Sequence record: PZ445423.1
Source of the DNA: a phage
DNA: 58,567 nt
Strand: one strand, 5' to 3'
Under the pieces are notes generated by a model that saw only the letters and a program-made list of their open reading frames with translations, did not search any database and was not told where the DNA came from. Made by a program: the position numbers and the translations under genes. Below are positions 9,117-58,567 of this stretch, in pieces. How positions within the stretch are numbered: position 1 is the first letter of the stretch; every line of letters begins with the position of its first letter.

Positions 9117-9524
9117 ATGACCGACACCAAAAAAGCCAAAGTTGCAGTAGCTAAAAGCTTCCGTGATTTTAAAACTGTGAGCCGGGCTAACGACCCGGCA
9201 AACACTAAGCCTATGAATGTGGTTATTCCTGGTGTAGGCGACACTGGCGAAAAACTCTACATTCGTAGCCGCTACTGCACAGAGTACCGTGATGCTGAAC
9301 TGAAAGCACAGCGTCAACTGTTGGCGCTTATGCAGGGTAAAGACGGTGAAGTAACGGATGCTATGAAGGAAGATATCCTTACCCGTTCACTGTGTAACCT
9401 TGTAGCAGGTTGGACTTTTGACGAGCCACCGACTGTTGACAACGTGTTTGAGTTCTTAACGGAGAACCCAACTGTCCGAGAAGATCTTAACGTATTTGCC
9501 GCCAAAGATAGTAATTTTTTCTAA
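9117..9524 (+). CDS. tail assembly chaperone (G-like)
   Basis: 135-aa ORF just upstream of the tape measure gene; ends at a TTTTTTC slippery heptamer. Confidence 0.55.
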   Translation: MTDTKKAKVAVAKSFRDFKTVSRANDPANTKPMNVVIPGVGDTGEKLYIRSRYCTEYRDAELKAQRQLLALMQGKDGEVTDAMKEDILTRSLCNLVAGWTFDEPPTVDNVFEFLTENPTVREDLNVFAAKDSNFF

Positions 9525-9922
9525 AAGCGCGCAGACAGTTAATTGATAAGAAGATCCTCCAATGGGAACTAAATAGCAAAGTCCCCGGCGGGGGATCTTC
9601 TTTATTATCACAACTGCAAAAGGTTGAGGAACAGTCTGGTAAGACGCCGCCTAAGCTTAAAGAATATCGGGAAAAGGAAATACCGATTTGCTTTGAATAC
9701 CTGTCTACTTTATTTGATGATATTTACACTGGAGGGGATTTTAGTTATACAGAATTGCACAGCTATCAGGTAACAATGGGCTTACATCTTCAACCGTACG
9801 AATGCGAAATACTGCGACAGCTATGGCTTGAAAAGCGCGTGTCTGAAGCTGAACAAAATGCTAAACTCATGGAAAGTCAAATGCAAAATCAGAATAAAGG
9901 TAGAAGGAAAAGGAGAAGATAA
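9515..9922 (+). CDS. -1 frame extension of the tail assembly chaperone (GT-like fusion if joined to 9117-9521)
   Basis: The -1 frame is open for 135 codons from 9515 to a TAA overlapping the tape-measure ATG; T_TTT_TTC heptamer at 9515-9521. Confidence 0.45.
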   Translation, partial: FFLKARRQLIDKKILQWELNSKVPGGGSSLLSQLQKVEEQSGKTPPKLKEYREKEIPICFEYLSTLFDDIYTGGDFSYTELHSYQVTMGLHLQPYECEILRQLWLEKRVSEAEQNAKLMESQMQNQNKGRRKRRR

Positions 9923-17929: not shown

Positions 17930-19681
17930 ATGGCTACGCGCTTGCACGGTATCTTGCTGGATGGTTTGAATAAGCCAATTATTAACGCTACAGTTGCTTT
18001 GATAGCAAAAGGGAACACGATCACCGTATTGAACGGAAGCGAGGCAATATTCCGCACTGACGGATCCGGTGCGTATAATGTAACCGTACAAACAGGCCAT
18101 TATAAGGTGATCATTGGTCCGCAGGGTATTGAGCCTTATAAAGCGGGTGAAATTGTTATTTATGGTGATAGTCCTGAAGGTTCGCTCAACGGCTATTTAA
18201 TTAACTGGGCTCCGGAAGAGTTGACACCGGATGTTATTAAACAAGTCCAGCAACTTGTGGCTAACTCTGAGGAATACGCGTTACAAGCTGGTCGCTCTGC
18301 TGCGGCAGCTAAAAACGACGCAGACCGCGCAAAGACGGAAGCAGACCGTGCGGAATCTGCTGCTAACAATGCACCAGAAATCCAACCATTACCAGATGTG
18401 TGGATACCCTTTAATAATTCACTGGATATGATCACCGGATTCTCGCCGTCATACAAAAAGATTGTCATAGGTGATGATGAGATCACAATGCTAGGTGACA
18501 AGATTGTTAAGTTTAAACGCGCATCAGCCGCTACTTACATTAATAAGTCTGGCGTGTTCACAATTGCTGAAATCGATGAACCAAGATTTGAACGTGAAGG
18601 TTTATTGATTGAGGGCCAGAGAACTAACCTGCTAATCAATTCAACCAATCCGACTAAATGGAACAAGTCGTCAAATATGATCTTAGATAGATCAGGTGTA
18701 GATGATCTCGGATTTCAGTACGCAAAATTTACATTAAAACCAGAAATGGTAGGGCAAACTTCAGCGATTAACATAGTGACCGTTTCCGGCAGTAAAGGTT
18801 TTGATGTAACAGGAAATGAAAAGTATGTAACCATATCATGCAGGGCGCAAAGTGGGACTCCAAATTTAAGATGCCGATTACGATTTGAAAACTACGATGG
18901 TTCTGCTTATACATTTTTGGGTGATGCTTACCTAAATATGACAGATCTATCGATTGAAAAAACTGGCGGCGCTGCAAATCGTATTACTGCAAGGGCTGTT
19001 AAAGATAAAGCAAGCAAATGGATTTTCTTTGAGGCAACAATTAAAGCACTTGATACAGAAAATATGATCGGTGCAATGGTGCAGTATGCACCAGCAAAAG
19101 GGGGAGGTACTGGTGCAGATGATTATATTTATATTGCGACCCCTCAAGTTGAAGGCGGGGCATGTGCTTCATCCTTTATTATTACAGAAGCAACTCCAGT
19201 GACAAGGGCTAGTGATATGGTTACAATGCCAATCAAAAACAATATTTATAGCTTACCTTTCACAATACTGTGTGAGGTACATAAGAACTGGTATAAAACA
19301 CCAAACGCAGCACCTCGAGTTTTTGATACTGGCGGCCACCAAACTGGGGCGGCAATGATCCTTGGCTTTGGTTCTTCAACGGATTATGACGGATTCCCTT
19401 ATTGTGATATAGGTGGTTCAAACCGACGCGTTAATGAAAACGCTTCTCTTGAAAAAATGGTTATGGGGATGCGTGTAAAAGCAGATCAATTGACATGTGC
19501 AATAAGTAACGGACGTATATCCAGCGAAACAAAAACAACCTGGACTTACATTCAAAGCTCCGCAACTATTCGTATCGGTGGTCAGACAACGACAGGACAA
19601 GGTCATTTATTTGGCCATGTCAGAAATTTTCGAGTATGGCATAAAGCATTGACTGACCGTGAATTGAAGGAGTCTGTATGA
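17930..19681 (+). CDS. tail fiber / receptor-binding protein (putative)
   Basis: About 583 aa from the ATG at 17930 (SD GGGAGA); beta-rich N-terminus, Ala-rich coiled-coil segment, large C-terminal domain. Confidence 0.5.
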   Translation: MATRLHGILLDGLNKPIINATVALIAKGNTITVLNGSEAIFRTDGSGAYNVTVQTGHYKVIIGPQGIEPYKAGEIVIYGDSPEGSLNGYLINWAPEELTPDVIKQVQQLVANSEEYALQAGRSAAAAKNDADRAKTEADRAESAANNAPEIQPLPDVWIPFNNSLDMITGFSPSYKKIVIGDDEITMLGDKIVKFKRASAATYINKSGVFTIAEIDEPRFEREGLLIEGQRTNLLINSTNPTKWNKSSNMILDRSGVDDLGFQYAKFTLKPEMVGQTSAINIVTVSGSKGFDVTGNEKYVTISCRAQSGTPNLRCRLRFENYDGSAYTFLGDAYLNMTDLSIEKTGGAANRITARAVKDKASKWIFFEATIKALDTENMIGAMVQYAPAKGGGTGADDYIYIATPQVEGGACASSFIITEATPVTRASDMVTMPIKNNIYSLPFTILCEVHKNWYKTPNAAPRVFDTGGHQTGAAMILGFGSSTDYDGFPYCDIGGSNRRVNENASLEKMVMGMRVKADQLTCAISNGRISSETKTTWTYIQSSATIRIGGQTTTGQGHLFGHVRNFRVWHKALTDRELKESV

Positions 19682-19956
19682 AAGATATTATTTTAACATT
19701 TAAAGATAAGCAAGAATACCAAAATTTCTTGATTGGGATAAATTGGCAGGATAATGAGGAGCTTCAGGATAAGATCCTTCTGGACGAAATTGGTTACACC
19801 TATACAAACATATCCGGAAGTGAAGACGAAGAACCAGAATCAATTCGAAACGATGGTTACTTTGTTAATGTTCGTATCTTGAACTTTGACTTCAACCAGC
19901 AGATATTTGATGGATATGTGGTTACATTAGATCGACCTTTAAGAGAATGGGCGTAA
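19678..19956 (+). CDS. hypothetical protein, possible fiber assembly factor
   Basis: 92-aa ORF overlapping the upstream stop (ATGA) and lying between two fiber genes. Confidence 0.4.
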   Translation: MKDIILTFKDKQEYQNFLIGINWQDNEELQDKILLDEIGYTYTNISGSEDEEPESIRNDGYFVNVRILNFDFNQQIFDGYVVTLDRPLREWA

Positions 19957-19965
19957 GGAGCGTTT

Positions 19966-21498
19966 ATGGTAACTAAGACTATTATACCAACTGATATAAC
20001 CAAACTTAAATCTGATGTTGAAGCGATAAACGGAGAAGTATCAACATTAACGGAGGATACCTCCACGTTAAAGTCCGATGTGGGAACTCTAAAATCTGAC
20101 GTTGGCAACTTGAAAACACGAGAAATTGTGAATACAGATTGGACAGCGCAGCGACCACAGAATCAGCAGAACGATTCGTCTAGCAACTTCGGAACAGGCT
20201 ATAAATTAATCTCTCAAGGTATAGATATTGATGGAAAAACATATGCTGCGTCACTGGAAATGGTGCGGGTTAGATCTGACGGAATCATAAACGCGCGTAT
20301 TAATGTTGTTAACGCTGCTGGTGACTCAATATATTACGATTTTAATGATAATGGTGAAATTGTAGTTCCACCGAAACAAAATATTAGCTCAAGACGTTTT
20401 CGTATTGCAAATGATGGCACATCGTCAATGGATGGTCGGTTGAACATGTGGGGTGCTAGTACGCGCGCCGATGTTTTTGAATACGGCTGGAGTAGCGGTT
20501 ACGGCTTTTATATGCAGCGCAATACCGATAACTCAAGAGAGTTTCATGTAAATGGAACTATTACAGCAAATAACGTAAGTTCGGGATCCGACCGAGACTT
20601 GAAAACCGATATCGAAACTATCGCGAATGCTACCGAAAAACTGCGTAAGATATATGGATACACATATACACTTAAGTCCGACGGAATGCCTTACGCTGGT
20701 GTGATTGCACAAGAGGTTATGGAAGCGTTGCCAGAAGCGGTTGGTGGGATGACAGTTTACACTGAAGAAGATAAGGAAATAGGGACGCGTTACCTTACTG
20801 TTAACTATTCTGGTATTGTTGGTTTGCTTGTTCAGGTATGTCGTGAAGCTGGTGCGGCTGGTATCGGTGGCGCGATCGGTGGCTTAATTGGTTCCTGGAT
20901 CGGTAATGGTTGGGGTGGCAATGGTGGCTGGGGTGGTCGCGGTAACTTCGCTGGTCCGGTGGAAGTGCAAGCTTCTGTTGACACCAACGCAATTCTGCAA
21001 GCTATCAACAACGGTACTCTTCAGACCATTCAGGGTCAGAACGGTACTAACCTGACTGTTGAGCGCTCCGCTGCTTCTACCTATAACGGTATTACTCAGC
21101 AGAACACTCAAAACCTGCTGGCTTCCGTTCAGGGTTTTGCTGGTCTGAACACACAGATCCAGGGCGGCACCAGCCAAGTGCTCGCGGCTCTGTGTAACAA
21201 CGAAGCAGCTAACATTACCCGTTCCTTCCAGGCGCAGCTAGAAGCTCAGAAGTGTTGCTGCGAAACCAACCTGAACATCGAGCGTCAAGCAGAAGCTACT
21301 CGTGCGCTCCTGCGCGATCAGCACGCACAAGCGCAAGCTGTTCTGATCTGTGACCTGAAGTCCCAGTTGCAGGAAGCTCGCTTTGCAAACTCTCAGTTGG
21401 CGCAGACGGCTGGTCTTACCTGTAAGATCAATCAGGTTGAGCAGTTAGTTAACTTTAAACTGCCAACTCCTCCGACTCCTCCGACTAGCTGCTGCTAA
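19966..21498 (+). CDS. tail fiber with S74-type intramolecular chaperone domain and long low-complexity C-terminal extension
   Basis: SD AAGGAG; N-terminal LKSDVGTLKSDVGNLK repeats; GSDRDLKTDIETI...AGVIAQEVMEALPEAV matches the S74 autoproteolytic chaperone signature; ~220 more residues follow. Confidence 0.7.
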   Translation: MVTKTIIPTDITKLKSDVEAINGEVSTLTEDTSTLKSDVGTLKSDVGNLKTREIVNTDWTAQRPQNQQNDSSSNFGTGYKLISQGIDIDGKTYAASLEMVRVRSDGIINARINVVNAAGDSIYYDFNDNGEIVVPPKQNISSRRFRIANDGTSSMDGRLNMWGASTRADVFEYGWSSGYGFYMQRNTDNSREFHVNGTITANNVSSGSDRDLKTDIETIANATEKLRKIYGYTYTLKSDGMPYAGVIAQEVMEALPEAVGGMTVYTEEDKEIGTRYLTVNYSGIVGLLVQVCREAGAAGIGGAIGGLIGSWIGNGWGGNGGWGGRGNFAGPVEVQASVDTNAILQAINNGTLQTIQGQNGTNLTVERSAASTYNGITQQNTQNLLASVQGFAGLNTQIQGGTSQVLAALCNNEAANITRSFQAQLEAQKCCCETNLNIERQAEATRALLRDQHAQAQAVLICDLKSQLQEARFANSQLAQTAGLTCKINQVEQLVNFKLPTPPTPPTSCC

Positions 21499-21520
21499 TC
21501 GTTGAAGTGTGGTTAAACTA

Positions 21521-21556
21521 AAGCGCCTTTCGCTCCTCCGCTTGGGGCGCTTTTAA
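21521..21556 (+). terminator. candidate terminator/stem-loop after the fiber gene
   Basis: AGCGCC...GGCGCT stem with a 19-nt loop, followed by TTTTAAC. Confidence 0.35.
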
Positions 21557-21569
21557 CAGAGGTACTATC

Positions 21570-21938
21570 ATGAGCCACATTAAAATCGCAACGATGGGAA
21601 TGCCACGGGTCAAATTGCCTAAGGTTGCTTTACCTCGCATTAGCGTAGGTGAGCACAACCATGAACATGAGAAAGAGGAATATAAACATGCTCACTCTTA
21701 TGCTCGAGATCATGAACATATGGCAGCTATGTCAAATGTTCTTGACCGGATGGAAGAACCTCCGCATACGTGGGCGGCGTACCACGACAAGCCCGGCGGT
21801 ATGATGTCCATTGTTGAAATGGAATACCGCGAATTAATGGAGTGTAAGAAAGAAGGCGACCGCGCAGGGATCATGAAAGAGTTGACTGATCTTGCCGCAG
21901 CTTGTACTTGCGCTCTTCAAAAAATGAAAGATATGTAA
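21570..21938 (+). CDS. hypothetical His/Glu-rich protein (possibly MazG-like NTP pyrophosphatase)
   Basis: 122 aa, SD AGAGGT; EMEYRELMECKKEGD...LTDLAAA loosely resembles MazG-type EExxE helices. Confidence 0.35.
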   Translation: MSHIKIATMGMPRVKLPKVALPRISVGEHNHEHEKEEYKHAHSYARDHEHMAAMSNVLDRMEEPPHTWAAYHDKPGGMMSIVEMEYRELMECKKEGDRAGIMKELTDLAAACTCALQKMKDM

Positions 21939-31147: not shown

Positions 31148-31267
31148 ACTTTTGTTCTCCAGTTTTAACAGCGATATTCGCTGGTTGTCGGGTTTAAAAG
31201 CTTTAGTAGTATAGTTGGGTTACCGCACCCTAAACAATGCGCTAGCGGTGCGGTTTTCGCGGTAAGA

Positions 31268-31990
31268 TCAAATGTGTTTGCTGTAAGCCTTATCCATAAA
31301 TTCGCTATAGCCTTTAGCGCGAAGTTTACACGCCGGGCATTCCCCGCAACCGTATCCCCAGTCATGCAGAGTACGACGGACGCCATTATAGCACGTATGG
31401 GACTGCTCAATTACTGTGGTTAAGAAACCAACCTTATCCGCCAGCTCAAACGTTTCCGCTTTGTTTAAACGCATAAGCGGAGTAACAAAATGGATATCTG
31501 TTTCATATCCAACGTTTAACGTAGCTTCAAGCAAATCTACAAACTGCTGACGGCAGTCCGGATAACCGCTATAGTCCGTTTCACAAACGCCCGTAACCAC
31601 ATATCGGGCTCCGACCTTCTGCGCGTAAGCGTGCGCGGTAGTCAGGAAAAGGGCATTACGGTTTGGCACAAAGCTTGCCGGAAGGTTGTTGTGCTGTTCA
31701 TGATACTCGTTAACATCACCTTCGTTCCCGATTAAAGCGCTATTGCCGATCTGTTTCAAAGCAGGTAATTCAAAGACAACAAACGGGACATTGTGCTCTT
31801 TACAAATTTGATTAGCACAAGCCAGCTCAATGTTATGACGTTGACCGTATGCAAAACCGATAGCGTAGACTTTGTCATAGTTATTAAGTGCAAGACCCAA
31901 ACATGTCACGCTGTCCTGGCCGCCAGACAGGACGACAACGGCGGAGTTATGATTTTTTACAGGGAATACCAGTTTATCTAATTTATTCAT
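31268..31990 (-). CDS. queC: 7-cyano-7-deazaguanine synthase
   Basis: 240 aa; PP-loop VVLSGGQDS; C-terminal Cys cluster CYNG...CGECPAC typical of QueC zinc site. Confidence 0.9.
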   Translation of the reverse strand: MNKLDKLVFPVKNHNSAVVVLSGGQDSVTCLGLALNNYDKVYAIGFAYGQRHNIELACANQICKEHNVPFVVFELPALKQIGNSALIGNEGDVNEYHEQHNNLPASFVPNRNALFLTTAHAYAQKVGARYVVTGVCETDYSGYPDCRQQFVDLLEATLNVGYETDIHFVTPLMRLNKAETFELADKVGFLTTVIEQSHTCYNGVRRTLHDWGYGCGECPACKLRAKGYSEFMDKAYSKHI

Positions 31991-42142: not shown

Positions 42143-42383
42143 TTTTCTGTCCTCTGTTGTGTTTCGATGTATGTATAGTAGCACATCCATGTGCTTAGGC
42201 AAGACTCAATTTGTATCAATTAATCTTTTTAAACGGATTAGTAATCTAGCAACCTTCCTCCATTCAGCATCCTCCATTAATGGTGAAGGCTTATACGCTT
42301 CAGGTATCGGACAAGGTATATAGGGTTCCATGTCAGATATTACTTGCTTTGATAACTTTTTCTTCCGTTTACCCATAAATAGC

Positions 42384-42968
42384 CTATTTCAAATAGCGGG
42401 AAGTCATAATTGGATGCAAAGACACTTCTTCCTCAGATGTAACCACATTGGCAGACGTTCCTGTAGACCCGAAGCCGTTAGCACCGCGCTCAGTAGTCTT
42501 AAGCTCGCCCACTTCTACCAGTTGCACGCTGGGCAGCTTGATAAGCATAGCTTGCGCAATGCGGTCACCGTGCTTAATGATATAAGGTAATTCACCATCG
42601 ATTGTAAGTTTAATCTTAACTTCACCAGTGTAGTCGCTATCAATGACGCCCACGCAGTTTGCCAGACGCACGTTATTTTTGAATCCTTGCCCACTACGGG
42701 AATAAACCATAAGCGCATATCCTTCAGGAATATCAAACGCTAACCCTGTGCGAATAACTTTATTTACACGGAAATAAAGCTGGTCGTAACCTTCCGCACG
42801 CAAATCCGCGTGAAGGTCAAAGCAAGCTGCCCCCGCACTGGCAAACGATGGCAGGATTGCGGTGTCTGTTAAGCGTTTTACCCCGAGAAGAGTTGGCGCA
42901 AAGGATGTAGCGGTTACGTTAGAATCAGTTATAGAAATAGTGTGCATGTTATTTAATACGTCCGTCAT
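42384..42968 (-). CDS. dut: dUTP diphosphatase
   Basis: 194 aa; dUTPase motifs AGAACFDL, RSGQG, GVIDSDYTGEV, GDRIAQ, RGANGFGSTG; SD AAGGTGA. Confidence 0.9.
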   Translation of the reverse strand: MTDVLNNMHTISITDSNVTATSFAPTLLGVKRLTDTAILPSFASAGAACFDLHADLRAEGYDQLYFRVNKVIRTGLAFDIPEGYALMVYSRSGQGFKNNVRLANCVGVIDSDYTGEVKIKLTIDGELPYIIKHGDRIAQAMLIKLPSVQLVEVGELKTTERGANGFGSTGTSANVVTSEEEVSLHPIMTSRYLK

Positions 42969-45073: not shown

Positions 45074-47416
45074 TTATTCCTCTTCTCCTAAGTTTGCCAT
45101 AATACCTTCAACATCTTGCGTAATGCGCCAAGCTGCGCCAGTGAATCCCAGTTTGATAGTCTCCTCCCGTGTTACCGGAACAAGAGCACCCATAGCAACC
45201 ATCTCTTTGATCGTAGACTCAATTGCTGCGGACAATCCGTGGTGATAGTTTTTAAACGCGGACTTACTTGCAAGACGAGTAGTAATGTCACCCCGCGTGA
45301 TAATACCTTCTTTACGCAGATCTACACGTTTAACTTTCACCCAATCTTTAGTTAGATAATTGACACAAACCTGGCACATAGTACGGATACGAGCTTCGTC
45401 ATTAGTACCAATACCCCCACTATGCCATTCCTTCATAATGATATCCTGTCCATGACGCACAAAGTCCAAGGCCCATTGAACATGATAGGTTTGCACAACC
45501 GGATTGATCCAGTTTTCTCCCACAGCTAACAGGGCGGATAGACGTAACACCTTCAGGTGCGCACGGTTCCACGGCTGACGGATTGCTTCGTCTTTGGTTG
45601 CGTTAATATTACGATCACATTCGTCGTTAAACTGATCGCATAATGCTTCCGCTTCTGGACTAAACTGCACTTCAATACTTTGATGCTTTGCCATTGCGAC
45701 TAAGGTGTGGTTAACAAGATGGCACACCATATCACGCAAATGCTGATCCATTGTAGTCTGCTGGTTCTTGTTTAAAGGTGGTCGATCACCTTCATAGCGG
45801 ACAACATGGAAACGGGATAAGAATCCATCCTCCATCATTTCACGGGTTAACGCTTCAAAAAACGTGTCCGGTGTTGTTTCGCCCATGATGCTATAGGCCA
45901 CACCTTGTTGTGCTTCCGTATTATTAGCCTTATCAGAATAAGACATACCACCAACAATAGACATCTGACCGGACTTTTGATAAACATCGGTAAGATCATT
46001 CTTGAAGCTTTGCATCGGTGAACCTGCTGGCGCCGTAGCCATTGCTTTAATAATCTTACCAAACTCACCGTTCAAGTTGATAAAAGATTGTTTGTCCGCA
46101 AAAGATTTACGCAGTGCGGAGCCGGAAGCACATCGGTCAAAAGATACAAAGCTATGAATCTGCGGAAACGGTTCCTGAAGCTGGCTAACTATATTAGATA
46201 AGCCACTGTTCAACGTTTCTTTACCAACACCAGAACGGGCAATAAGGACGAAATATCCATTAAGACCGGATTGAGGAATCTGCCAAACCTTCCCGCATAC
46301 GCCAGCCATAAATCCTAGTGCTGTCACAATAGAAATTTCTTTCACTGGTCGGACGGATGCTTTGTAGATATACTTCGCAAGCTCCCCAGCAAGTCCCGGC
46401 GGCCAGTCAATGGCGGTTGCATCAATAGACGTACTTTCTGCAACTACGGTCTGCCCCTGTGTTGTTTCAACAGTTACGGGCATTTCCGCTACCTGTTGCA
46501 TTGCACTGTGTGCCGCTTGCATACGGGCAGCATAATCCCGCGCCAGCGCCGCTACGTTTTCCTGGGCAATGCGCTCACGCTCCATGCGACCGCGACACAT
46601 ACGCAAGCAACGGTCAATATGAACATTGTTCTTATTAGCCTTCTCACGTTTGCCCAGTGCACTATAACGGAACAGACGACGACATTGCTCATTACTTTCC
46701 GTGTAAAATGCATACATAGAAATAAGGGCAAGGTCTGCTTCAGACTGGGAAGGGAAACCCATTTCAACCCATTCACCATTAAATAACCGCGCATACTTAT
46801 CGCCGTTATCTGCTTCAAGCGCACGCTGATGAATAGTTGCATCATCTTCTACCGGATCTTTTTCTACTAGTTCAATTTCATATGTCTTGCGCTGAAGATC
46901 AATTTCATTCACAAGCATAGTAAGGTAATGATCACGTTCTGCAACTGGTTTGTTGTAGACGGGATTGCCCGTGCAGATAATAAAACGCTCCTGACTATAA
47001 ACCTCAACACCATCACGTCGACGACCTTTACCAATGTTACCTCTTAACCACAGGTGAACACCCAGGCCTGAGCGACTTACTTCGGTGTAAGTATCGAACG
47101 CAGTCATGATCTGTTCGAAGCGGCGCAACTGCTCCGGCGTCGTGTGCTTCTTGGGATCCGGTTCATTGGTCGCATTCTTCACATCCAGGTCGATGCAGGT
47201 GAACGGATCTTGTGCAGTAAGCACAAAGCCAATATAAGGTTTATTGAAATGAGCGGCGCAACCTTTGGCAGCTTCAAACGTCATAAGCATATCCGGATCG
47301 GTAACGTCCGCCGCCATCAAACGTCCAATATCGTTATCCCATACGAGCGGTTTCTTGTCCGCATCGGCCACCGCCCATTGTGGGAAAGCTTTAATTTCAG
47401 CGGGAAACAGTTCCAT
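45074..47416 (-). CDS. primase/helicase (primase-polymerase-like N-terminal domain plus P-loop NTPase domain)
   Basis: 780 aa, SD AAAGGA; acidic N-terminal FTCIDLDV segment; central P-loop-like IARSGVGKETL; largest replication ORF. Confidence 0.65.
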   Translation of the reverse strand: MELFPAEIKAFPQWAVADADKKPLVWDNDIGRLMAADVTDPDMLMTFEAAKGCAAHFNKPYIGFVLTAQDPFTCIDLDVKNATNEPDPKKHTTPEQLRRFEQIMTAFDTYTEVSRSGLGVHLWLRGNIGKGRRRDGVEVYSQERFIICTGNPVYNKPVAERDHYLTMLVNEIDLQRKTYEIELVEKDPVEDDATIHQRALEADNGDKYARLFNGEWVEMGFPSQSEADLALISMYAFYTESNEQCRRLFRYSALGKREKANKNNVHIDRCLRMCRGRMERERIAQENVAALARDYAARMQAAHSAMQQVAEMPVTVETTQGQTVVAESTSIDATAIDWPPGLAGELAKYIYKASVRPVKEISIVTALGFMAGVCGKVWQIPQSGLNGYFVLIARSGVGKETLNSGLSNIVSQLQEPFPQIHSFVSFDRCASGSALRKSFADKQSFINLNGEFGKIIKAMATAPAGSPMQSFKNDLTDVYQKSGQMSIVGGMSYSDKANNTEAQQGVAYSIMGETTPDTFFEALTREMMEDGFLSRFHVVRYEGDRPPLNKNQQTTMDQHLRDMVCHLVNHTLVAMAKHQSIEVQFSPEAEALCDQFNDECDRNINATKDEAIRQPWNRAHLKVLRLSALLAVGENWINPVVQTYHVQWALDFVRHGQDIIMKEWHSGGIGTNDEARIRTMCQVCVNYLTKDWVKVKRVDLRKEGIITRGDITTRLASKSAFKNYHHGLSAAIESTIKEMVAMGALVPVTREETIKLGFTGAAWRITQDVEGIMANLGEEE

Positions 47417-49306: not shown

Positions 49307-49633
49307 TTAGAGCTGTACAGGTGTGAAGTGGGCTAATGTGTCGTCGGACATAATACCAGACAGTTTTTCGGTTACCCATTCGGACCAAATACTATCCGGT
49401 TCCTGGCGGTGCACAAACCAGATTTCGGATGTGCCTTCTTTGCGCATCGGTTGCACTTCTACAAGGAACTTGTCCTGCATAAGGCGGGTGAAGCATACGC
49501 TGGTCATTGGAACCGGCTTTTCGTCTTTATTGTAATAAGGGATTAATATTTTATTTCCGAAGTTAGCAACTTCATAAACCGTTCCTTTGCGAAGACCTCT
49601 GATGTCAGTGTAAGAGCGGATGAACGTTTTCAT
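49307..49633 (-). CDS. hypothetical protein
   Basis: 108-aa ORF with SD AGGAG. Confidence 0.45.
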   Translation of the reverse strand: MKTFIRSYTDIRGLRKGTVYEVANFGNKILIPYYNKDEKPVPMTSVCFTRLMQDKFLVEVQPMRKEGTSEIWFVHRQEPDSIWSEWVTEKLSGIMSDDTLAHFTPVQL

Positions 49634-49686
49634 ATTTACTCCTAGGGCTCCCGCAGAAGCCCGTCAGTGAACAGTGTGGTTATAGA

Positions 49687-50301
49687 TTATGCGTCCAGTC
49701 CGTTGTATTTTCGCCAGGCGTAGAACTGAATGGCGACAGTTGTTCCGTTGTAAGAAGGCATTGCTGCTTTCATTTCTTTCAGCTCGGGGGTACGACCCAG
49801 CTCACTTAAAAGTTTGTCACCCATTGCCCACACTTCGGCAGTTTTTCCTTTGAGCGGCTTGCGAGCGCCATTTTTGAAATCACAGCGAGCAGCTTTTGCA
49901 TCCTGTTTTGGCGCGGCAGCTTTTGGCTCTTCAATTTTGATTTCAGAAACCTGCGTGGCAGCTTTTGCGTGTTTCATATCTTTCTCTTCCTCCTGCTCCA
50001 GAGCTTCGAGGCAGCTTTTGACAATTTCCGGATTTACCATCGGGCGCAGTACCGAGACGCTGGCAGCTGGCGCGGCGGTCGGTGCCGGGACTTTCTGCTC
50101 CGGCTGTTGCGCTTTTTTATGGTCGCGCAGCACCTGAAGCACTTCCTTTTCGATGATGTAAAAACCAATATCGTCCTGATGGATTAACTGTTCGTGTGCA
50201 TCGCGTGCAACCTGGCCCCAGCGGGTCTTAAGGGCGCGGCGTGCATTCGTTTTCATGGTGTAACGCATTTTGTCCTGTTCGCGGTGAGTTACTTTAGACA
50301 T
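49687..50301 (-). CDS. hypothetical protein with Ala/Pro/Lys-rich linker
   Basis: About 204 aa from the ATG at 50301 (SD AGGAG). Confidence 0.45.
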   Translation of the reverse strand: MSKVTHREQDKMRYTMKTNARRALKTRWGQVARDAHEQLIHQDDIGFYIIEKEVLQVLRDHKKAQQPEQKVPAPTAAPAASVSVLRPMVNPEIVKSCLEALEQEEEKDMKHAKAATQVSEIKIEEPKAAAPKQDAKAARCDFKNGARKPLKGKTAEVWAMGDKLLSELGRTPELKEMKAAMPSYNGTTVAIQFYAWRKYNGLDA

Positions 50302-50374
50302 GGTATAGCTCCTTTCGTTAATGTTAGTTTGCTTATTACTGCCCACCGTAATGATGAGCAGTGTATAAGAAAAC

Positions 50375-50625
50375 TTATTGCACGATTGCTACGAAATCGG
50401 CGGTTGCGATATCCATGCTTGCGAAAGCAACGATGCCATAGTCGGTGTCGTTCTCGGCGTTAAAAGCTTTGAGGAACTGCTGCACCGCTGCTTTATGGTT
50501 AAGAGTTACGTCGATAGCATAGTCCAGCTATAGACTTTGCGCTTGCCAAAACCTTTAACTGCAATGCGAGCGCTTTTAGTGTTGGTTGGTGCCAAAAATT
50601 TGGTGACGATAGAAGTAGCCATGAT
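50375..50625 (-). pseudogene. small gene interrupted by a frameshift (pseudogene, recoding site or sequencing error)
   Basis: ATG at 50625 with SD GAGGA opens a 38-codon frame ending ~50509; the adjacent frame continues ~49 codons to a TAA at ~50375 but has no start codon of its own. Confidence 0.4.
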
Positions 50626-50690
50626 GTAATCCTCGTTTTGTTTAAGTTGACTTATTATTGCCCAGTCAGATCAACTAGGCAAGATATAAA

Positions 50691-50903
50691 TCACTTAATT
50701 TGTACCAAATCGTATTCCTTGTAAATGTCGCTAATGTACATATCGAACTGACCCATTAAGAAGATTTCGGCCTCCTCCCAGCTTGGGGCAGATACATAAC
50801 CAGCTATTTTACCGGACGCGAGTTCCACTAATTTGAATTCCATGATGCTACCTTTAATGTGGTTAAGCAGTATTGCTTTGTTGAAGTAATAATAGCCTTG
50901 CAT
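50691..50903 (-). CDS. hypothetical small protein
   Basis: 70-aa ORF without a clear SD; an internal ATG at 50843 with a weak AAAGGT SD would give 50 aa. Confidence 0.3.
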   Translation of the reverse strand: MQGYYYFNKAILLNHIKGSIMEFKLVELASGKIAGYVSAPSWEEAEIFLMGQFDMYISDIYKEYDLVQIK

Positions 50904-51086
50904 CGTGATATTGAATAGGCCAAAAGTGCTCTTTTAGAATTGTTTTGCATCTAGTGAAAAATACGCTTGCCCTGCATGTTTAGCACTAAGGGCCTAACTA
51001 ACATCACATCATCTGGAGTATTCGCGCAGGTGTACACATACATATAAAGCTGCCAAAATATTTTTATAAAAAGATGCAAAAAGGTG

Positions 51087-51115
51087 TAGACACATGATCG
51101 GTCTAGCACTACTAT
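51087..51115 (+). promoter_or_regulatory. candidate promoter, copy 1 of a repeated element
   Basis: TAGACA, a 17-nt spacer containing CATGATCGGTCT, then TACTAT; ~48 nt upstream of the ATG at 51163. Confidence 0.4.
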
Positions 51116-51162
51116 ATACACATACCGCAAGGTGCTACAAATTAACTTAAAGGGTACACATT

Positions 51163-51447
51163 ATGTCCATCGTCACTATGTCGTTCTTCGACCATTGCAA
51201 TAACGAAAAACAAATTATCGTGAACCTGCAAAAAGGGTTTGTTGTCGCACGCAATGCTAACCGCCAATGCATCGCGCTAACCGATTTTGCTTTTCGCCTT
51301 AACGTGGACAACACCACCGCCAAAAATATCGTTCACGATACAGCGTTGGAAGCTGCTCACGCTGCGAAGGATAAAGGTATCCGCGCCGCACGCGAAATCA
51401 TGCACAAGGCGCTCGGCATCACGTTCTTCGTTGGGATTAAGGGGTAA
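51163..51447 (+). CDS. hypothetical early protein
   Basis: 94-aa ORF with SD AAAGGGT; first + strand gene after the divergent region. Confidence 0.45.
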   Translation: MSIVTMSFFDHCNNEKQIIVNLQKGFVVARNANRQCIALTDFAFRLNVDNTTAKNIVHDTALEAAHAAKDKGIRAAREIMHKALGITFFVGIKG

Positions 51448-51452
51448 CTACT

Positions 51453-52581: not shown

Positions 52582-52925
52582 AAGCTGCTGGATGCGAAGT
52601 ATTAGATTTTGTTGAGTTTGGTTGTTATCAGGGTGAATGGCTTGCCCTGATAAGAAAAGATGGTGTATTGGGAGTTTGCGAAGGGTCTTATGGATCATGC
52701 TCTGGTTGCGATTCATTTGAAGCTGAATTTGGCTGGCATAATGAGGAAAGTCCCGATTATCAGAAACGTCTTGCTGAATTTGGTAAAAGTTACTTACCAG
52801 CTAACAGCTTTGAAGAAATGATCGTCAAACTTCAAAAGGATATTGAGAATTATGATTGGGATGACGATTATAAATCTATGTTAGAAACTGTTCGTGACTG
52901 GCAGAAAAATATAGGACAAGTATAA
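52560..52925 (+). CDS. hypothetical Cys-containing acidic protein
   Basis: 121-aa ORF with SD AGAGGAG; contains CEGSYGSCSGCDSFE. Confidence 0.45.
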   Translation: MSYVSALEAAGCEVLDFVEFGCYQGEWLALIRKDGVLGVCEGSYGSCSGCDSFEAEFGWHNEESPDYQKRLAEFGKSYLPANSFEEMIVKLQKDIENYDWDDDYKSMLETVRDWQKNIGQV

Positions 52926-52940
52926 TTATCAATCTATAAT

Positions 52941-52964
52941 GGGCTCTACGGAGCCCTTAATTAT
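52941..52964 (+). terminator. candidate terminator/attenuator
   Basis: GGGCTC-tacg-GAGCCC hairpin followed by TTAATTAT. Confidence 0.45.
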
Positions 52965-52976
52965 CTGGAGGTTGTT

Positions 52977-53279
52977 ATGCTGTATTTAGGAATGGACGAA
53001 ACTGGACACGCGATTCCTTCCGTTAACAAGGAGACGCAAGTATTTACCGACTATTACGGGTCTGCTGTCCCTGTTGAGCCCTGGGCTAACTTTATCGCTG
53101 TAGACGCAGACGGTAAAGTACATTGTTATGACGCCAAACCTTCTTGCTATGAATCTGGTAAGCAATGGATGCTTGGCGTATACGGTTTGCATGTCCGCTA
53201 CTGCGGTGAAGTTGACCTCGAAGGTATGGACTGGCGCAATACGCTAAGGGAAATTAAAGAATATCGGGTTGAAGCATGA
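52977..53279 (+). CDS. hypothetical protein
   Basis: 100-aa ORF with SD GGAGG. Confidence 0.45.
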   Translation: MLYLGMDETGHAIPSVNKETQVFTDYYGSAVPVEPWANFIAVDADGKVHCYDAKPSCYESGKQWMLGVYGLHVRYCGEVDLEGMDWRNTLREIKEYRVEA

Positions 53280-53500
53280 AAATATTCATGGTACTAGGCG
53301 TTATACTTGCCGCTTTCATTGTATTTGCAATCGTAGACTCTAGAGAAATGGAGCAGCAAAACTGTCAGCGTACTGGTAACAGTCGGGATGATGTCATTTG
53401 GCAATATATTTACGATGCAAAAGGTAATGTTATGTCAATGTATCCTCAGGTTATTACTGAGTATGAATATAAATGCAATGACCGTAACAGGTGGAGATAA
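53276..53500 (+). CDS. small membrane-anchored protein
   Basis: 74 aa; N-terminal TM helix MKIFMVLGVILAAFIVFAIV; start overlaps the upstream stop (ATGA). Confidence 0.4.
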   Translation: MKIFMVLGVILAAFIVFAIVDSREMEQQNCQRTGNSRDDVIWQYIYDAKGNVMSMYPQVITEYEYKCNDRNRWR

Positions 53501-54423: not shown

Positions 54424-54894
54424 ATGGCTGACGTTAAAACTATTGTTGATGCAATGGACGAGTCCAAAGACTGCCAACTGAAGAAGTCGTTTGAAGTAAA
54501 ACAGGTTACAGAGACTCAGTTAATAGCAAGATTCGCACGTCGTTGCGGCTTGGGGCGCGGGAAAGACTGGAACGGGCTTATTGTTATGCCCACATCACAG
54601 ATCCTTGTCTATGTCCGTAATGTTGTAGAAGATCTTTTGCGTCTTCAAATTGATATTGGTGACGTAGAAATTAACATGACCGCGAGCTCTACCATTGTGG
54701 TTAAATGGCAGTCGGGCGAGACACTGCGTTTGGAAGCGTGCCATTGTGCTAAGAGCTTGCACCACCTGCGAGGCTGTCATTACCAGTTCGTTGGGTTTGT
54801 ACATCCGCAAGGGTTAAGCGAGCGTACGGCGCTTGTAGCGCGTTTGCTGCTGCGTCCTTATAATAACGAGCCGGAAGTCATATACGAGGCATAA
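54424..54894 (+). CDS. hypothetical protein
   Basis: 156-aa ORF tightly following the upstream gene. Confidence 0.4.
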   Translation: MADVKTIVDAMDESKDCQLKKSFEVKQVTETQLIARFARRCGLGRGKDWNGLIVMPTSQILVYVRNVVEDLLRLQIDIGDVEINMTASSTIVVKWQSGETLRLEACHCAKSLHHLRGCHYQFVGFVHPQGLSERTALVARLLLRPYNNEPEVIYEA

Positions 54895-58032: not shown

Positions 58033-58567
58033 ATGAACGGGGCAAGTCAAGAGCAATATGATCGTGACTGGACGAATTACATCCAGTATGCAAATAGCTT
58101 GTCCGCTGAAGAGATGGCAATACGTGACAAAGTTGTTGCTGAGTACATGTTCGACTACAATTGGACTAACGCTTGCATGAGATGCGGGTTCAATGCTATG
58201 TTTGCACAGGAGCTTGGCCAACGCTTTGCCACGGACTGTTATGTTCGATGGAAGCTCAAGGAGATTGAAAGATCCCGTGTTCAACGTACTTCTGAGCAAG
58301 CTAACATTGAAGCAGACCTTGAGCGTCAGCATATCATTGAAGCATTAAAACGTGAAGCTCATTATACAGGACCGGGATCTTCTCAAGCTGCTAGAGTCGC
58401 CGCATTGGGCAAGCTTGCACAAATTTATGATTTGGATGCTCCCAAGAAGGCTAAGATTGATGTTACTAACAGAGGCGGCGTAATGATAGTCCCTGCTGTA
58501 GCAAATATTGACGAATGGGAAAAAACTGCATCCGAGTCTCAACAACGACTAGTTAAAGAGACTGAAG
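58033..58567 (+). CDS. possible terminase small subunit, 3'-truncated at the window edge
   Basis: Open frame from the ATG at 58033 (SD AAGGGGG) with no stop through 58567; sits just upstream of terL if the genome is circular or permuted. Confidence 0.35.
   Translation, partial: MNGASQEQYDRDWTNYIQYANSLSAEEMAIRDKVVAEYMFDYNWTNACMRCGFNAMFAQELGQRFATDCYVRWKLKEIERSRVQRTSEQANIEADLERQHIIEALKREAHYTGPGSSQAARVAALGKLAQIYDLDAPKKAKIDVTNRGGVMIVPAVANIDEWEKTASESQQRLVKETE

What the first reader, a model, noticed from the sequence alone, without database searches (positions are those of the whole stretch)
50375..50625. Small conserved-looking gene split by a frameshift
A well-initiated frame (SD GAGGA, ATG at 50625) runs 38 codons and terminates, while the adjacent frame continues for ~49 codons without its own start; the junction lies in a CTATAGCTGGACTATG stretch. 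This is a pseudogene, a sequencing or assembly indel, or a recoding event. Joined, the product would be ~86 aa.
Basis: seen in the sequence. Interest (0 to 1): 0.45.

Follow-up and report, generated by a model that had tools for sequence, protein, structure and literature searches.

The report
One-base deletion splits small phage gene
A small, widely conserved phage gene of unknown function is broken here by the loss of a single G, which is an ordinary gene-killing mutation (or, less likely, a sequencing slip) and not a programmed recoding signal.

Summary
On the minus strand an ORF with a good SD (GAGGA 50634-50630) starts at ATG 50622, not 50625. It stops after 38 codons at TAA 50508-50506. 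The -1 frame then runs open for 50 codons to TAA 50377-50375.

The window is a Seuratvirus (Queuovirinae) coliphage genome. All 26 related phage records carry one uninterrupted 82-aa ORF here. They read AGCTGGGACTAT where the window reads AGCTGGACTAT, so one G of a GGG run is missing (window GG 50525-50524). Putting it back gives a protein 100% identical to that of phages Greed, SLUR25 and SLUR63.

Recoding is not supported: there is no slippery heptamer, no notable downstream structure, and no relative keeps the split. The window's true -1 frameshift site, T_TTT_TTC at 9515-9521 in the tail chaperone gene, looks quite different.

I favour a genuine recent mutation (about 0.6) over an assembly error (about 0.3):
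- It is the only one of 91 CAjan genes split in the window.
- All 110 homopolymer runs of 5-6 nt match CAjan in length.
- The gene is dispensable; some relatives carry a different gene in the slot.
- Two other independent frameshift alleles exist in metagenome contigs.

The intact protein belongs to phrog_3199, a large uncharacterised phage family. Interest is low.

The parts
50654..50682 (-). sigma-70-like promoter candidate (TTGCCT-17-AATAAT) in the spacer upstream of the gene; it overlaps a short inverted repeat followed by GGCAATAATAAG
   Evidence: Consensus scan; sequence; motif search. This is a consensus match only and has not been tested.
50630..50634 (-). Shine-Dalgarno GAGGA, 7 nt upstream of the ATG
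   Evidence: Sequence; identical in relatives.
50506..50622 (-). 5' fragment: ATG, 38 codons, TAA. Codons 1-33 are native (strands b1-b3 of the fold); codons 34-38 (TMLST) are out of frame.
   Evidence: tblastn HSP for CAjan residues 1-33 at 50622-50524, frame -2.
50524..50525 (-). Lesion: a GG run where all orthologs have GGG (codons Trp33-Asp34, TGG GAC). On the + strand this is CC instead of CCC.
   Evidence: Alignments; indel list (del_in_window 1 at 50524: AGCATAGT-CCAGCTAT vs AGCATAGTCCCAGCTAT).
50375..50527 (-). 3' fragment in the -1 frame: 50 codons plus TAA, encoding native residues 34-82 (helix 39-58, b4, b5, and the conserved H43, A46 and N55). It has no SD or start of its own.
   Evidence: tblastn HSP for CAjan residues 33-82 at 50527-50378, frame -1; structure model; conserved columns.
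50691..50903 (-). Upstream neighbour: intact 70-aa gene, 98.6% identical to CAjan AJT60555.1
49687..50301 (-). Downstream neighbour: intact 204-aa gene, 97.5% identical to CAjan AJT60553.1

Best explanation
The locus is the Seuratvirus ortholog of a conserved 82-aa early accessory phage protein (phrog_3199 / VOG5306; CAjan AJT60554.1, WildeMaa bas23_0076). It has been inactivated by loss of one G from a GGG run at codons 33/34.

Shown: translation from the normal SD/ATG goes out of frame after Trp33 and stops five codons later. The 38-aa product keeps only the first three beta-strands. It lacks the long helix, the last two strands and three of the family's most conserved residues (H43, A46, N55). 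The 3' part has no translation start of its own.

Inferred: this is most likely a genuine and very recent loss-of-function mutation in a dispensable gene, caused by replication slippage or deletion in a short homopolymer. It is neither a read or assembly artefact nor a programmed frameshift. The intact protein's biochemical role is unknown. From its position I infer an early-expressed host-takeover or counter-defence accessory factor. In this window it is the second gene of the leftward gene cluster that runs into the replication genes. In Autographiviridae it lies at the extreme left end of the genome.
For: The lesion:
- Four-way and six-way DNA alignments show a single missing G and otherwise 98% column identity.
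- The repaired translation is 100% identical to Greed, SLUR25 and SLUR63. All 26 close phage records give one uninterrupted tblastn piece over residues 1-82.
- 19 of 20 close metagenome homologs are 82-83 aa.

A real gene under selection:
- dN/dS is 0.17 among 11 intact orthologs, and both halves are constrained.
- The AF2 model has pLDDT 95.3.
- The family has 4215 representatives of 50%-identity clusters.

Against an assembly artefact:
- Of 91 CAjan CDS, this is the only one split over two frames in the window.
- Almost all other isolated 1-nt indels relative to CAjan lie in intergenic DNA or at the very 3' ends of genes. That pattern is expected of selection-filtered real differences, not random errors.
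- All 110 homopolymer runs of 5-6 nt, and 378 of 381 runs of 4 nt, have the same length as in CAjan.

The gene is dispensable:
- KS_A3 and SHIN8 carry an unrelated 74-aa gene in the same slot.
- KS_A3, SHIN8, VogelGryff and SA80RD match only part of the 601-nt query that holds the gene and its flanks.

Recurrent loss:
- SKFA01024783 and SKEP01054787, two separate assemblies, carry T4->T5 at codons 24-25.
- MAVE01000110 carries TT->TTT at codons 22-23.
Against: - No reads are available, so a consensus error at this single site cannot be excluded.
- The repaired gene carries no other lesion and no substitution unique to the window. A very recent mutation and an artefact would both look like this.
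- The GG allele was found in no other public sequence.
- Seuratvirus DNA carries 7-deazaguanine (preQ0) modifications (title and abstract of PMC7544227; the target motifs were not read here). From my own knowledge, not checked here, such modifications could disturb nanopore basecalling locally.
- The early accessory role of the intact protein is inferred from position only.
Confidence: 0.62

Rival explanations
1. Sequencing, assembly or polishing error: the phage really has GGG and an intact 82-aa gene, and the deposited consensus dropped one G.
For: The lesion lies in a homopolymer, though a short one. There is no secondary decay: the repaired ORF is 100% identical to known proteins and has no unique substitutions. 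The allele is seen nowhere else. Seuratvirus DNA is preQ0-modified (title and abstract of PMC7544227; the motifs were not read here).
Against: The assembly shows no sign of homopolymer errors. All 110 runs of 5-6 nt agree with CAjan, and no other of 91 genes is frameshifted. The other 1-nt indels avoid coding sequence. A 3-nt run is an unlikely place for the only error in 58.6 kb.
Confidence: 0.32
2. Programmed recoding: a -1 ribosomal frameshift or transcriptional slippage restores the 82-aa product from the split gene.
For: Only the geometry. A -1 shift anywhere within CTGGACTATGCTATCGACGTAA would join the two frames.
Against: The 22-nt overlap holds no X_XXY_YYZ heptamer (sequence). There is no A or T run for polymerase slippage. 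The local RNA fold is no better than shuffles (z = -0.94). All 26 related phages encode the protein in one frame, so the split is not conserved. The genome's real -1 site, the tail chaperone T_TTT_TTC at 9515-9521 with a 133-codon extension ending at the tape-measure start, shows what a true site looks like here.
Confidence: 0.02
3. Two separately functional mini-proteins: the 38-aa N-terminal piece and a 36-aa piece restarted at GTG 50485 are both made and reassemble or act independently.
For: GTG 50485 lies 20 nt downstream of the TAA, so reinitiation is conceivable.
Against: No SD precedes the GTG. The restart would begin inside the single helix at residue 47, losing invariant H43 and A46. 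None of the ~1240 90%-identity clusters and ~4200 50%-identity representatives listed suggests a naturally split form.
Confidence: 0.03

Closest known systems
Intact orthologs in Seuratvirus phages: Greed ANY29771.1, CAjan AJT60554.1, WildeMaa bas23_0076 (QXV85816.1), slur01_00019
   Same: Same position between the same 70-aa and ~203-aa neighbours, and the same SD, start and stop. DNA column identity is 98%. The repaired protein is 100% identical to Greed's and 96-98% identical to the others.
   Different: They read TGG GAC across codons 33-34 in one 249-nt ORF. The window lacks one G and is split.
Other frameshifted alleles of the same gene in metagenome contigs: SKFA01024783.1 and SKEP01054787.1 (T4->T5, annotated as the 63-aa ORF P0019), and MAVE01000110.1 (TT->TTT, giving an immediate TAA)
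   Same: The same gene, disrupted by a 1-nt length change in a short homopolymer within codons 22-34.
   Different: The positions differ and these are insertions, not a deletion, so they are independent events. They come from uncultured assemblies of unknown read quality.
phrog_3199 / pVOG VOG5306: stand-alone ~80-90-aa phage proteins of unknown function (Vequintavirus, Otagovirus, Nonagvirus 9g gp36, Autographiviridae such as PPpW-4 ORF2 and Pantoea phage Nufs112 ORF7)
   Same: Full-length HMM match at E = 4.5e-26. Shared motif TKF.aPTNTKgaRI ... W.Y ... NH..A ... N. Located among small genes at early-looking genome positions.
   Different: Identity to non-Seuratvirus members is 30-48%. Nothing is known of the function of any member. 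There is no Pfam, NCBIfam or PDB relative.
Programmed -1 frameshift of tail assembly chaperones (lambda G/GT type)
   Same: Two overlapping frames related by a -1 shift.
   Different: G/GT sites have a slippery heptamer, the split is conserved in all relatives, and both products are used. That arrangement is present in this window at 9515-9521. The 50524 site has none of these features.
Small accessory phage proteins whose loss lets the phage escape a defence system (for example Ksap1 of Dhillonvirus SECphi18, sensed by KpAvs2; PMC11564622)
   Same: A small early protein of unknown function that is dispensable in the laboratory. In that system, frameshift and deletion alleles arise under defence pressure.
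   Different: There is no sequence or structural relation, and no defence system is known to sense phrog_3199 proteins. This is an analogy only.

Membership tests
phrog_3199 / VOG5306 small phage protein family | Significant full-length profile match | tested here: met
   The repaired 82-aa translation matches phrog_3199 at E = 4.5e-26 over residues 1-81. A profile of homologs retrieves 1241 clusters at 90% identity and 4215 representatives at 50% identity.
phrog_3199 / VOG5306 small phage protein family | One continuous stand-alone ORF of about 77-100 aa | tested here: not met
   In the window the coding sequence is split into 38 codons and 50 codons in two frames. It is therefore a disrupted allele, a pseudogene, of the family and not a functional member.
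phrog_3199 / VOG5306 small phage protein family | Conserved residues T7, T13, R19, H43, A46, N55 | tested here: met
   All six are encoded. T7, T13 and R19 lie in the 5' fragment. H43, A46 and N55 lie only in the -1-frame fragment.
Programmed -1 ribosomal frameshift site | Slippery heptamer X_XXY_YYZ in the zero frame within the frame overlap | tested here: not met
   The overlap is CTG GAC TAT GCT ATC GAC GTA A, read in the zero frame as AGC TGG ACT ATG CTA TCG ACG TAA. No heptamer of that form is present.
Programmed -1 ribosomal frameshift site | Stimulatory downstream RNA structure | tested here: not met
   The MFE of 50560-50420 is -37.6 kcal/mol against a shuffle mean of -34.1 (z = -0.94); 34 of 200 shuffles fold as well.
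Programmed -1 ribosomal frameshift site | The two-frame arrangement is conserved in relatives | tested here: not met
   All 26 Seuratvirus records, 2 IMG/VR contigs and 5 of 7 metagenome contigs have a single frame. The two exceptions are shifted at other positions.
Transcriptional (polymerase) slippage site | Long A or T homopolymer (about 7 nt or more; threshold from general knowledge) at the junction | tested here: not met
   The junction is a GG run of 2 nt, and no A or T run lies in the overlap.
RNase H-like / HicB-N-terminal-like fold | Strong structural match, and for nucleases a set of conserved acidic catalytic residues | tested here: not met

The most novel reading that the evidence does not exclude
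The gene may be a recurrent target of inactivation. Three independent 1-nt frameshift alleles (the window; SKFA/SKEP; MAVE) all fall within codons 22-34, and some Seuratviruses have replaced the gene with another cassette. This could mean that the phrog_3199 protein is sensed by, or costly in the presence of, some host defence system, and that phages escape by losing it. The frameshift would then record a defence-escape event in a very widespread family (about 4200 representatives at 50% identity) of uncharacterised early phage proteins that has a confidently predicted fold and no solved relative.
Probability: 0.1. Interest if true: 0.55.

Novelty: new member of a known kind. Interest (0 to 1): 0.15.

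Why it matters
For annotation, this locus should be marked as a frameshifted pseudogene, or flagged for read-level checking. It should not be annotated as two tiny ORFs or as a recoding site. Biologically it adds little: one more dispensable early phage gene caught in a broken state.

The side observations are of modest value. The family is very large, is absent from Pfam and PDB, and folds confidently in prediction. It is lost or replaced repeatedly in close relatives. That makes it a reasonable candidate for screens of anti-defence or defence-trigger proteins.

Tried and rejected
- Recoding: I looked for a slippery heptamer, an A/T run and a stimulatory structure and found none. I contrasted the site with the window's real G/GT site.
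- Same allele elsewhere: exact-pattern scans of IMG/VR and JGI metagenomes for the GG version gave 0 hits. Exact-product look-ups of the 38-aa and 36-aa fragments and of both neighbouring proteins gave nothing. No independent assembly of this phage could therefore be found to confirm or refute the base count.
- Literature: searches for the family identifiers returned nothing. Papers mentioning Seuratvirus with frameshifts concern other genes.
- Repeated hairpins: an inverted-repeat scan of the local intergenic regions did not pick up the short stems I saw by eye.

Full report
**1. The observation**

Reading the minus strand of 50200-50800 shows an SD GAGGA at 50634-50630, a 7-nt spacer, and ATG at 50622-50620. 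This frame runs 38 codons (MATSIVTKFLAPTNTKSARIAVKGFGKRKVYSWTMLST) to TAA at 50508-50506.

The frame displaced by -1 carries a TAG at 50530-50528. It is then open from CTG 50527 for 50 codons to TAA 50377-50375. Its only start codon is a GTG at 50485 with no SD. The description is therefore correct, and the junction is in CTATAGCTGGACTATG as stated.

**2. What the window is**

Megablast places the region and the last 20 kb of the window in Seuratvirus (Queuovirinae) coliphages such as CAjan, slur01, Greed, WildeMaa and KS_A8, at about 91-98% identity. The window is collinear with the whole CAjan genome, permuted by 535 nt. It is not itself among the phage records (best identity below 99% over 20 kb). 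The GG junction sequence is also absent from IMG/VR.

**3. The lesion**

In WildeMaa, CAjan and Greed the same position holds an annotated 249-nt CDS of 82 aa. The DNA alignment has 98% column identity and a single gap. Relatives read AGCTGGGACTAT and the window reads AGCTGGACTAT. One G of the GGG spanning Trp33-Asp34 (TGG GAC) is missing, and the remaining GG is at window 50525-50524.

Re-inserting it gives MATSIVTKFLAPTNTKSARIAVKGFGKRKVYSWDYAIDVTLNHKAAVQQFLKAFNAENDTDYGIVAFASMDIATADFVAIVQ. This is 100% identical to the Greed, SLUR25 and SLUR63 proteins. All 26 close phage records give one uninterrupted tblastn piece over residues 1-82. Nineteen of 20 close homologs from metagenomes are 82-83 aa.

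**4. It is a real gene**

- Among 11 intact orthologs, dN/dS is 0.17 (about 0.13 for codons 1-33 and 0.19 for codons 34-82).
- The repaired protein matches phrog_3199 at E = 4.5e-26.
- Homologs at 30-48% identity occur in Vequintavirus, Otagovirus, Nonagvirus 9g, several Autographiviridae and others, always as stand-alone genes of about 80-90 aa among other small genes. In Autographiviridae they sit at the extreme left (early) end of the genome.
- A profile search finds 1241 clusters at 90% identity and 4215 representatives at 50% identity.
- AlphaFold2 with an 82-sequence alignment gives pLDDT 95.3 and the topology b1(3-10) b2(19-24) b3(27-32) helix(39-58) b4(64-69) b5(77-81).
- Invariant or near-invariant residues are T7, T13, T15, R19, H43, A46 and N55.

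**5. Consequence of the deletion**

The 38-aa product keeps b1-b3 only. The helix, b4, b5 and H43, A46 and N55 are encoded only in the -1 frame, which has no initiation signal. That amounts to loss of function.

**6. Recoding is not supported**

- The only stretch where a -1 shift could join the frames is CTGGACTATGCTATCGACGTAA. It contains no X_XXY_YYZ heptamer and no A or T run.
- The surrounding RNA folds no better than shuffles (z = -0.94).
- No relative conserves the split.
- The same window provides a positive control. The tail-assembly-chaperone ORF 9117-9524 ends AAT TTT TTC TAA, with the canonical T_TTT_TTC at 9515-9521. Its -1 frame stays open for 133 codons and stops exactly at the tape-measure ATG at 9922.

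**7. Genuine mutation or assembly error?**

Reads are not available, so I audited the assembly instead.

- tblastn of all 91 CAjan proteins against the window shows that this is the only gene split over two frames.
- In the base-level comparison, the other isolated 1-nt indels in well-aligned sequence lie almost entirely in intergenic DNA or at the last codons of genes. That is the pattern of selection-filtered real differences, not of random errors, which would mostly hit coding sequence.
- All 110 homopolymer runs of length 5-6, 378 of 381 of length 4 and 1726 of 1732 of length 3 have the same length as in CAjan. There is no homopolymer-error signature, and a 3-nt run would be an odd place for the only error.

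The gene is also dispensable. KS_A3 and SHIN8 carry an unrelated 74-aa gene in the same slot. KS_A3, SHIN8, VogelGryff and SA80RD match only part of the 601-nt region holding the gene and its flanks.

Two further independent frameshift alleles exist:

- SKFA01024783 and SKEP01054787, from two separate assemblies, have GGTTTTGG->GGTTTTTGG at codons 24-25. The remnant is annotated there as a 63-aa ORF.
- MAVE01000110 has GCAGTTAAA->GCAGTTTAAA at codons 22-23, which creates an immediate TAA.

Some evidence points the other way:

- The repaired gene carries no other lesion and no substitution unique to the window, so the event is either very recent or artefactual.
- The GG allele is found nowhere else.
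- Seuratvirus DNA carries preQ0 modifications (title and abstract of PMC7544227; I did not read the paper for the motifs). From general knowledge, these could disturb nanopore basecalling locally.

I put a genuine mutation at about 0.6, an artefact at about 0.3 and everything else at about 0.05.

**8. Function of the intact protein**

The fold is a generic beta-beta-beta-alpha-beta-beta unit, and there are no conserved acidic residues, so I do not file it under RNase H or HicB. Position is the only functional hint: an early accessory, host-takeover or counter-defence gene. That is inference only.

**9. Comparison and novelty**

This is a disrupted allele of a catalogued but uncharacterised phage gene family, produced by an ordinary homopolymer indel. 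The allele is new, but the kind is well known.

The most novel reading still open (about 10%) is that repeated disruption and replacement reflect selection to lose a protein that some host defence senses. This would be analogous to Ksap1 and KpAvs2 (PMC11564622), but nothing here tests it.

**10. Verdict**

It is an ordinary feature of low interest (0.15).

Noticed in passing
window 9117-9922 (+): Classical tail-assembly-chaperone G/GT arrangement. ORF 9117-9524 ends AAT TTT TTC TAA, with the canonical -1 slippery heptamer T_TTT_TTC at 9515-9521. The -1 frame stays open for 133 codons and stops at the tape-measure ATG at 9922. CAjan annotates only the short product.
   Followed up: partly
window 50651-50682 and 50332-50362 (-): The spacers before the split gene and before the next gene share an architecture: a short inverted repeat (TTGCC...GGGCAA; CTGC...GGCAG) followed by GGCA(A/G)TAATAAG, then about 25 nt, an SD and ATG. 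The 12-mer occurs exactly only at these two places. KS_A3 has a similar hairpin plus ATAATAA in its spacer. These may be repeated early promoters or RNA-processing sites.
   Followed up: partly
window ~51047-51147 (+): Relative to CAjan the window lacks about 142 bp (CAjan 52798-52939) in the divergent region between the leftward and rightward gene clusters. This removes the 5' part of CAjan's 69-aa CDS 52826-53035. The remaining stretch also differs by a +1/-1 indel pair.
   Followed up: no
window 49633-49700 and several other sites: Several CAjan accessory genes have no counterpart in the window: the homing endonuclease 50970-51452 and the small ORFs at 31193-31516, 42284-42514, 45876-46073, 53052-53315 and 54485-54763. 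Most of the tail fibre 18627-21710 is replaced, with only residues 1-146 matching. This is typical mosaicism.
   Followed up: no
window 58033-58567 (+): The last 535 nt are 100% identical to CAjan 1-535 (small terminase gene), while the rest of the genome is 78-99% identical. The window is a circular permutation of the CAjan record, and the small terminase ORF runs off the window end.
   Followed up: no
L014 (phage KS_A3, PP627278.1) 1195-1211: An A8-G9 homopolymer pair (AAAAAAAAGGGGGGGGG) sits directly upstream of the 74-aa gene that replaces the phrog_3199 gene in KS_A3. This is an unusual ribosome-binding region, or possibly a homopolymer artefact.
   Followed up: no
L016 (SKFA01024783.1) ~236: This contig carries the T5 frameshift allele. 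It also has a 1-nt deletion near the 3' end of the upstream 70-aa gene, called there as 75 aa. The sister contig L017 lacks that deletion.
   Followed up: no
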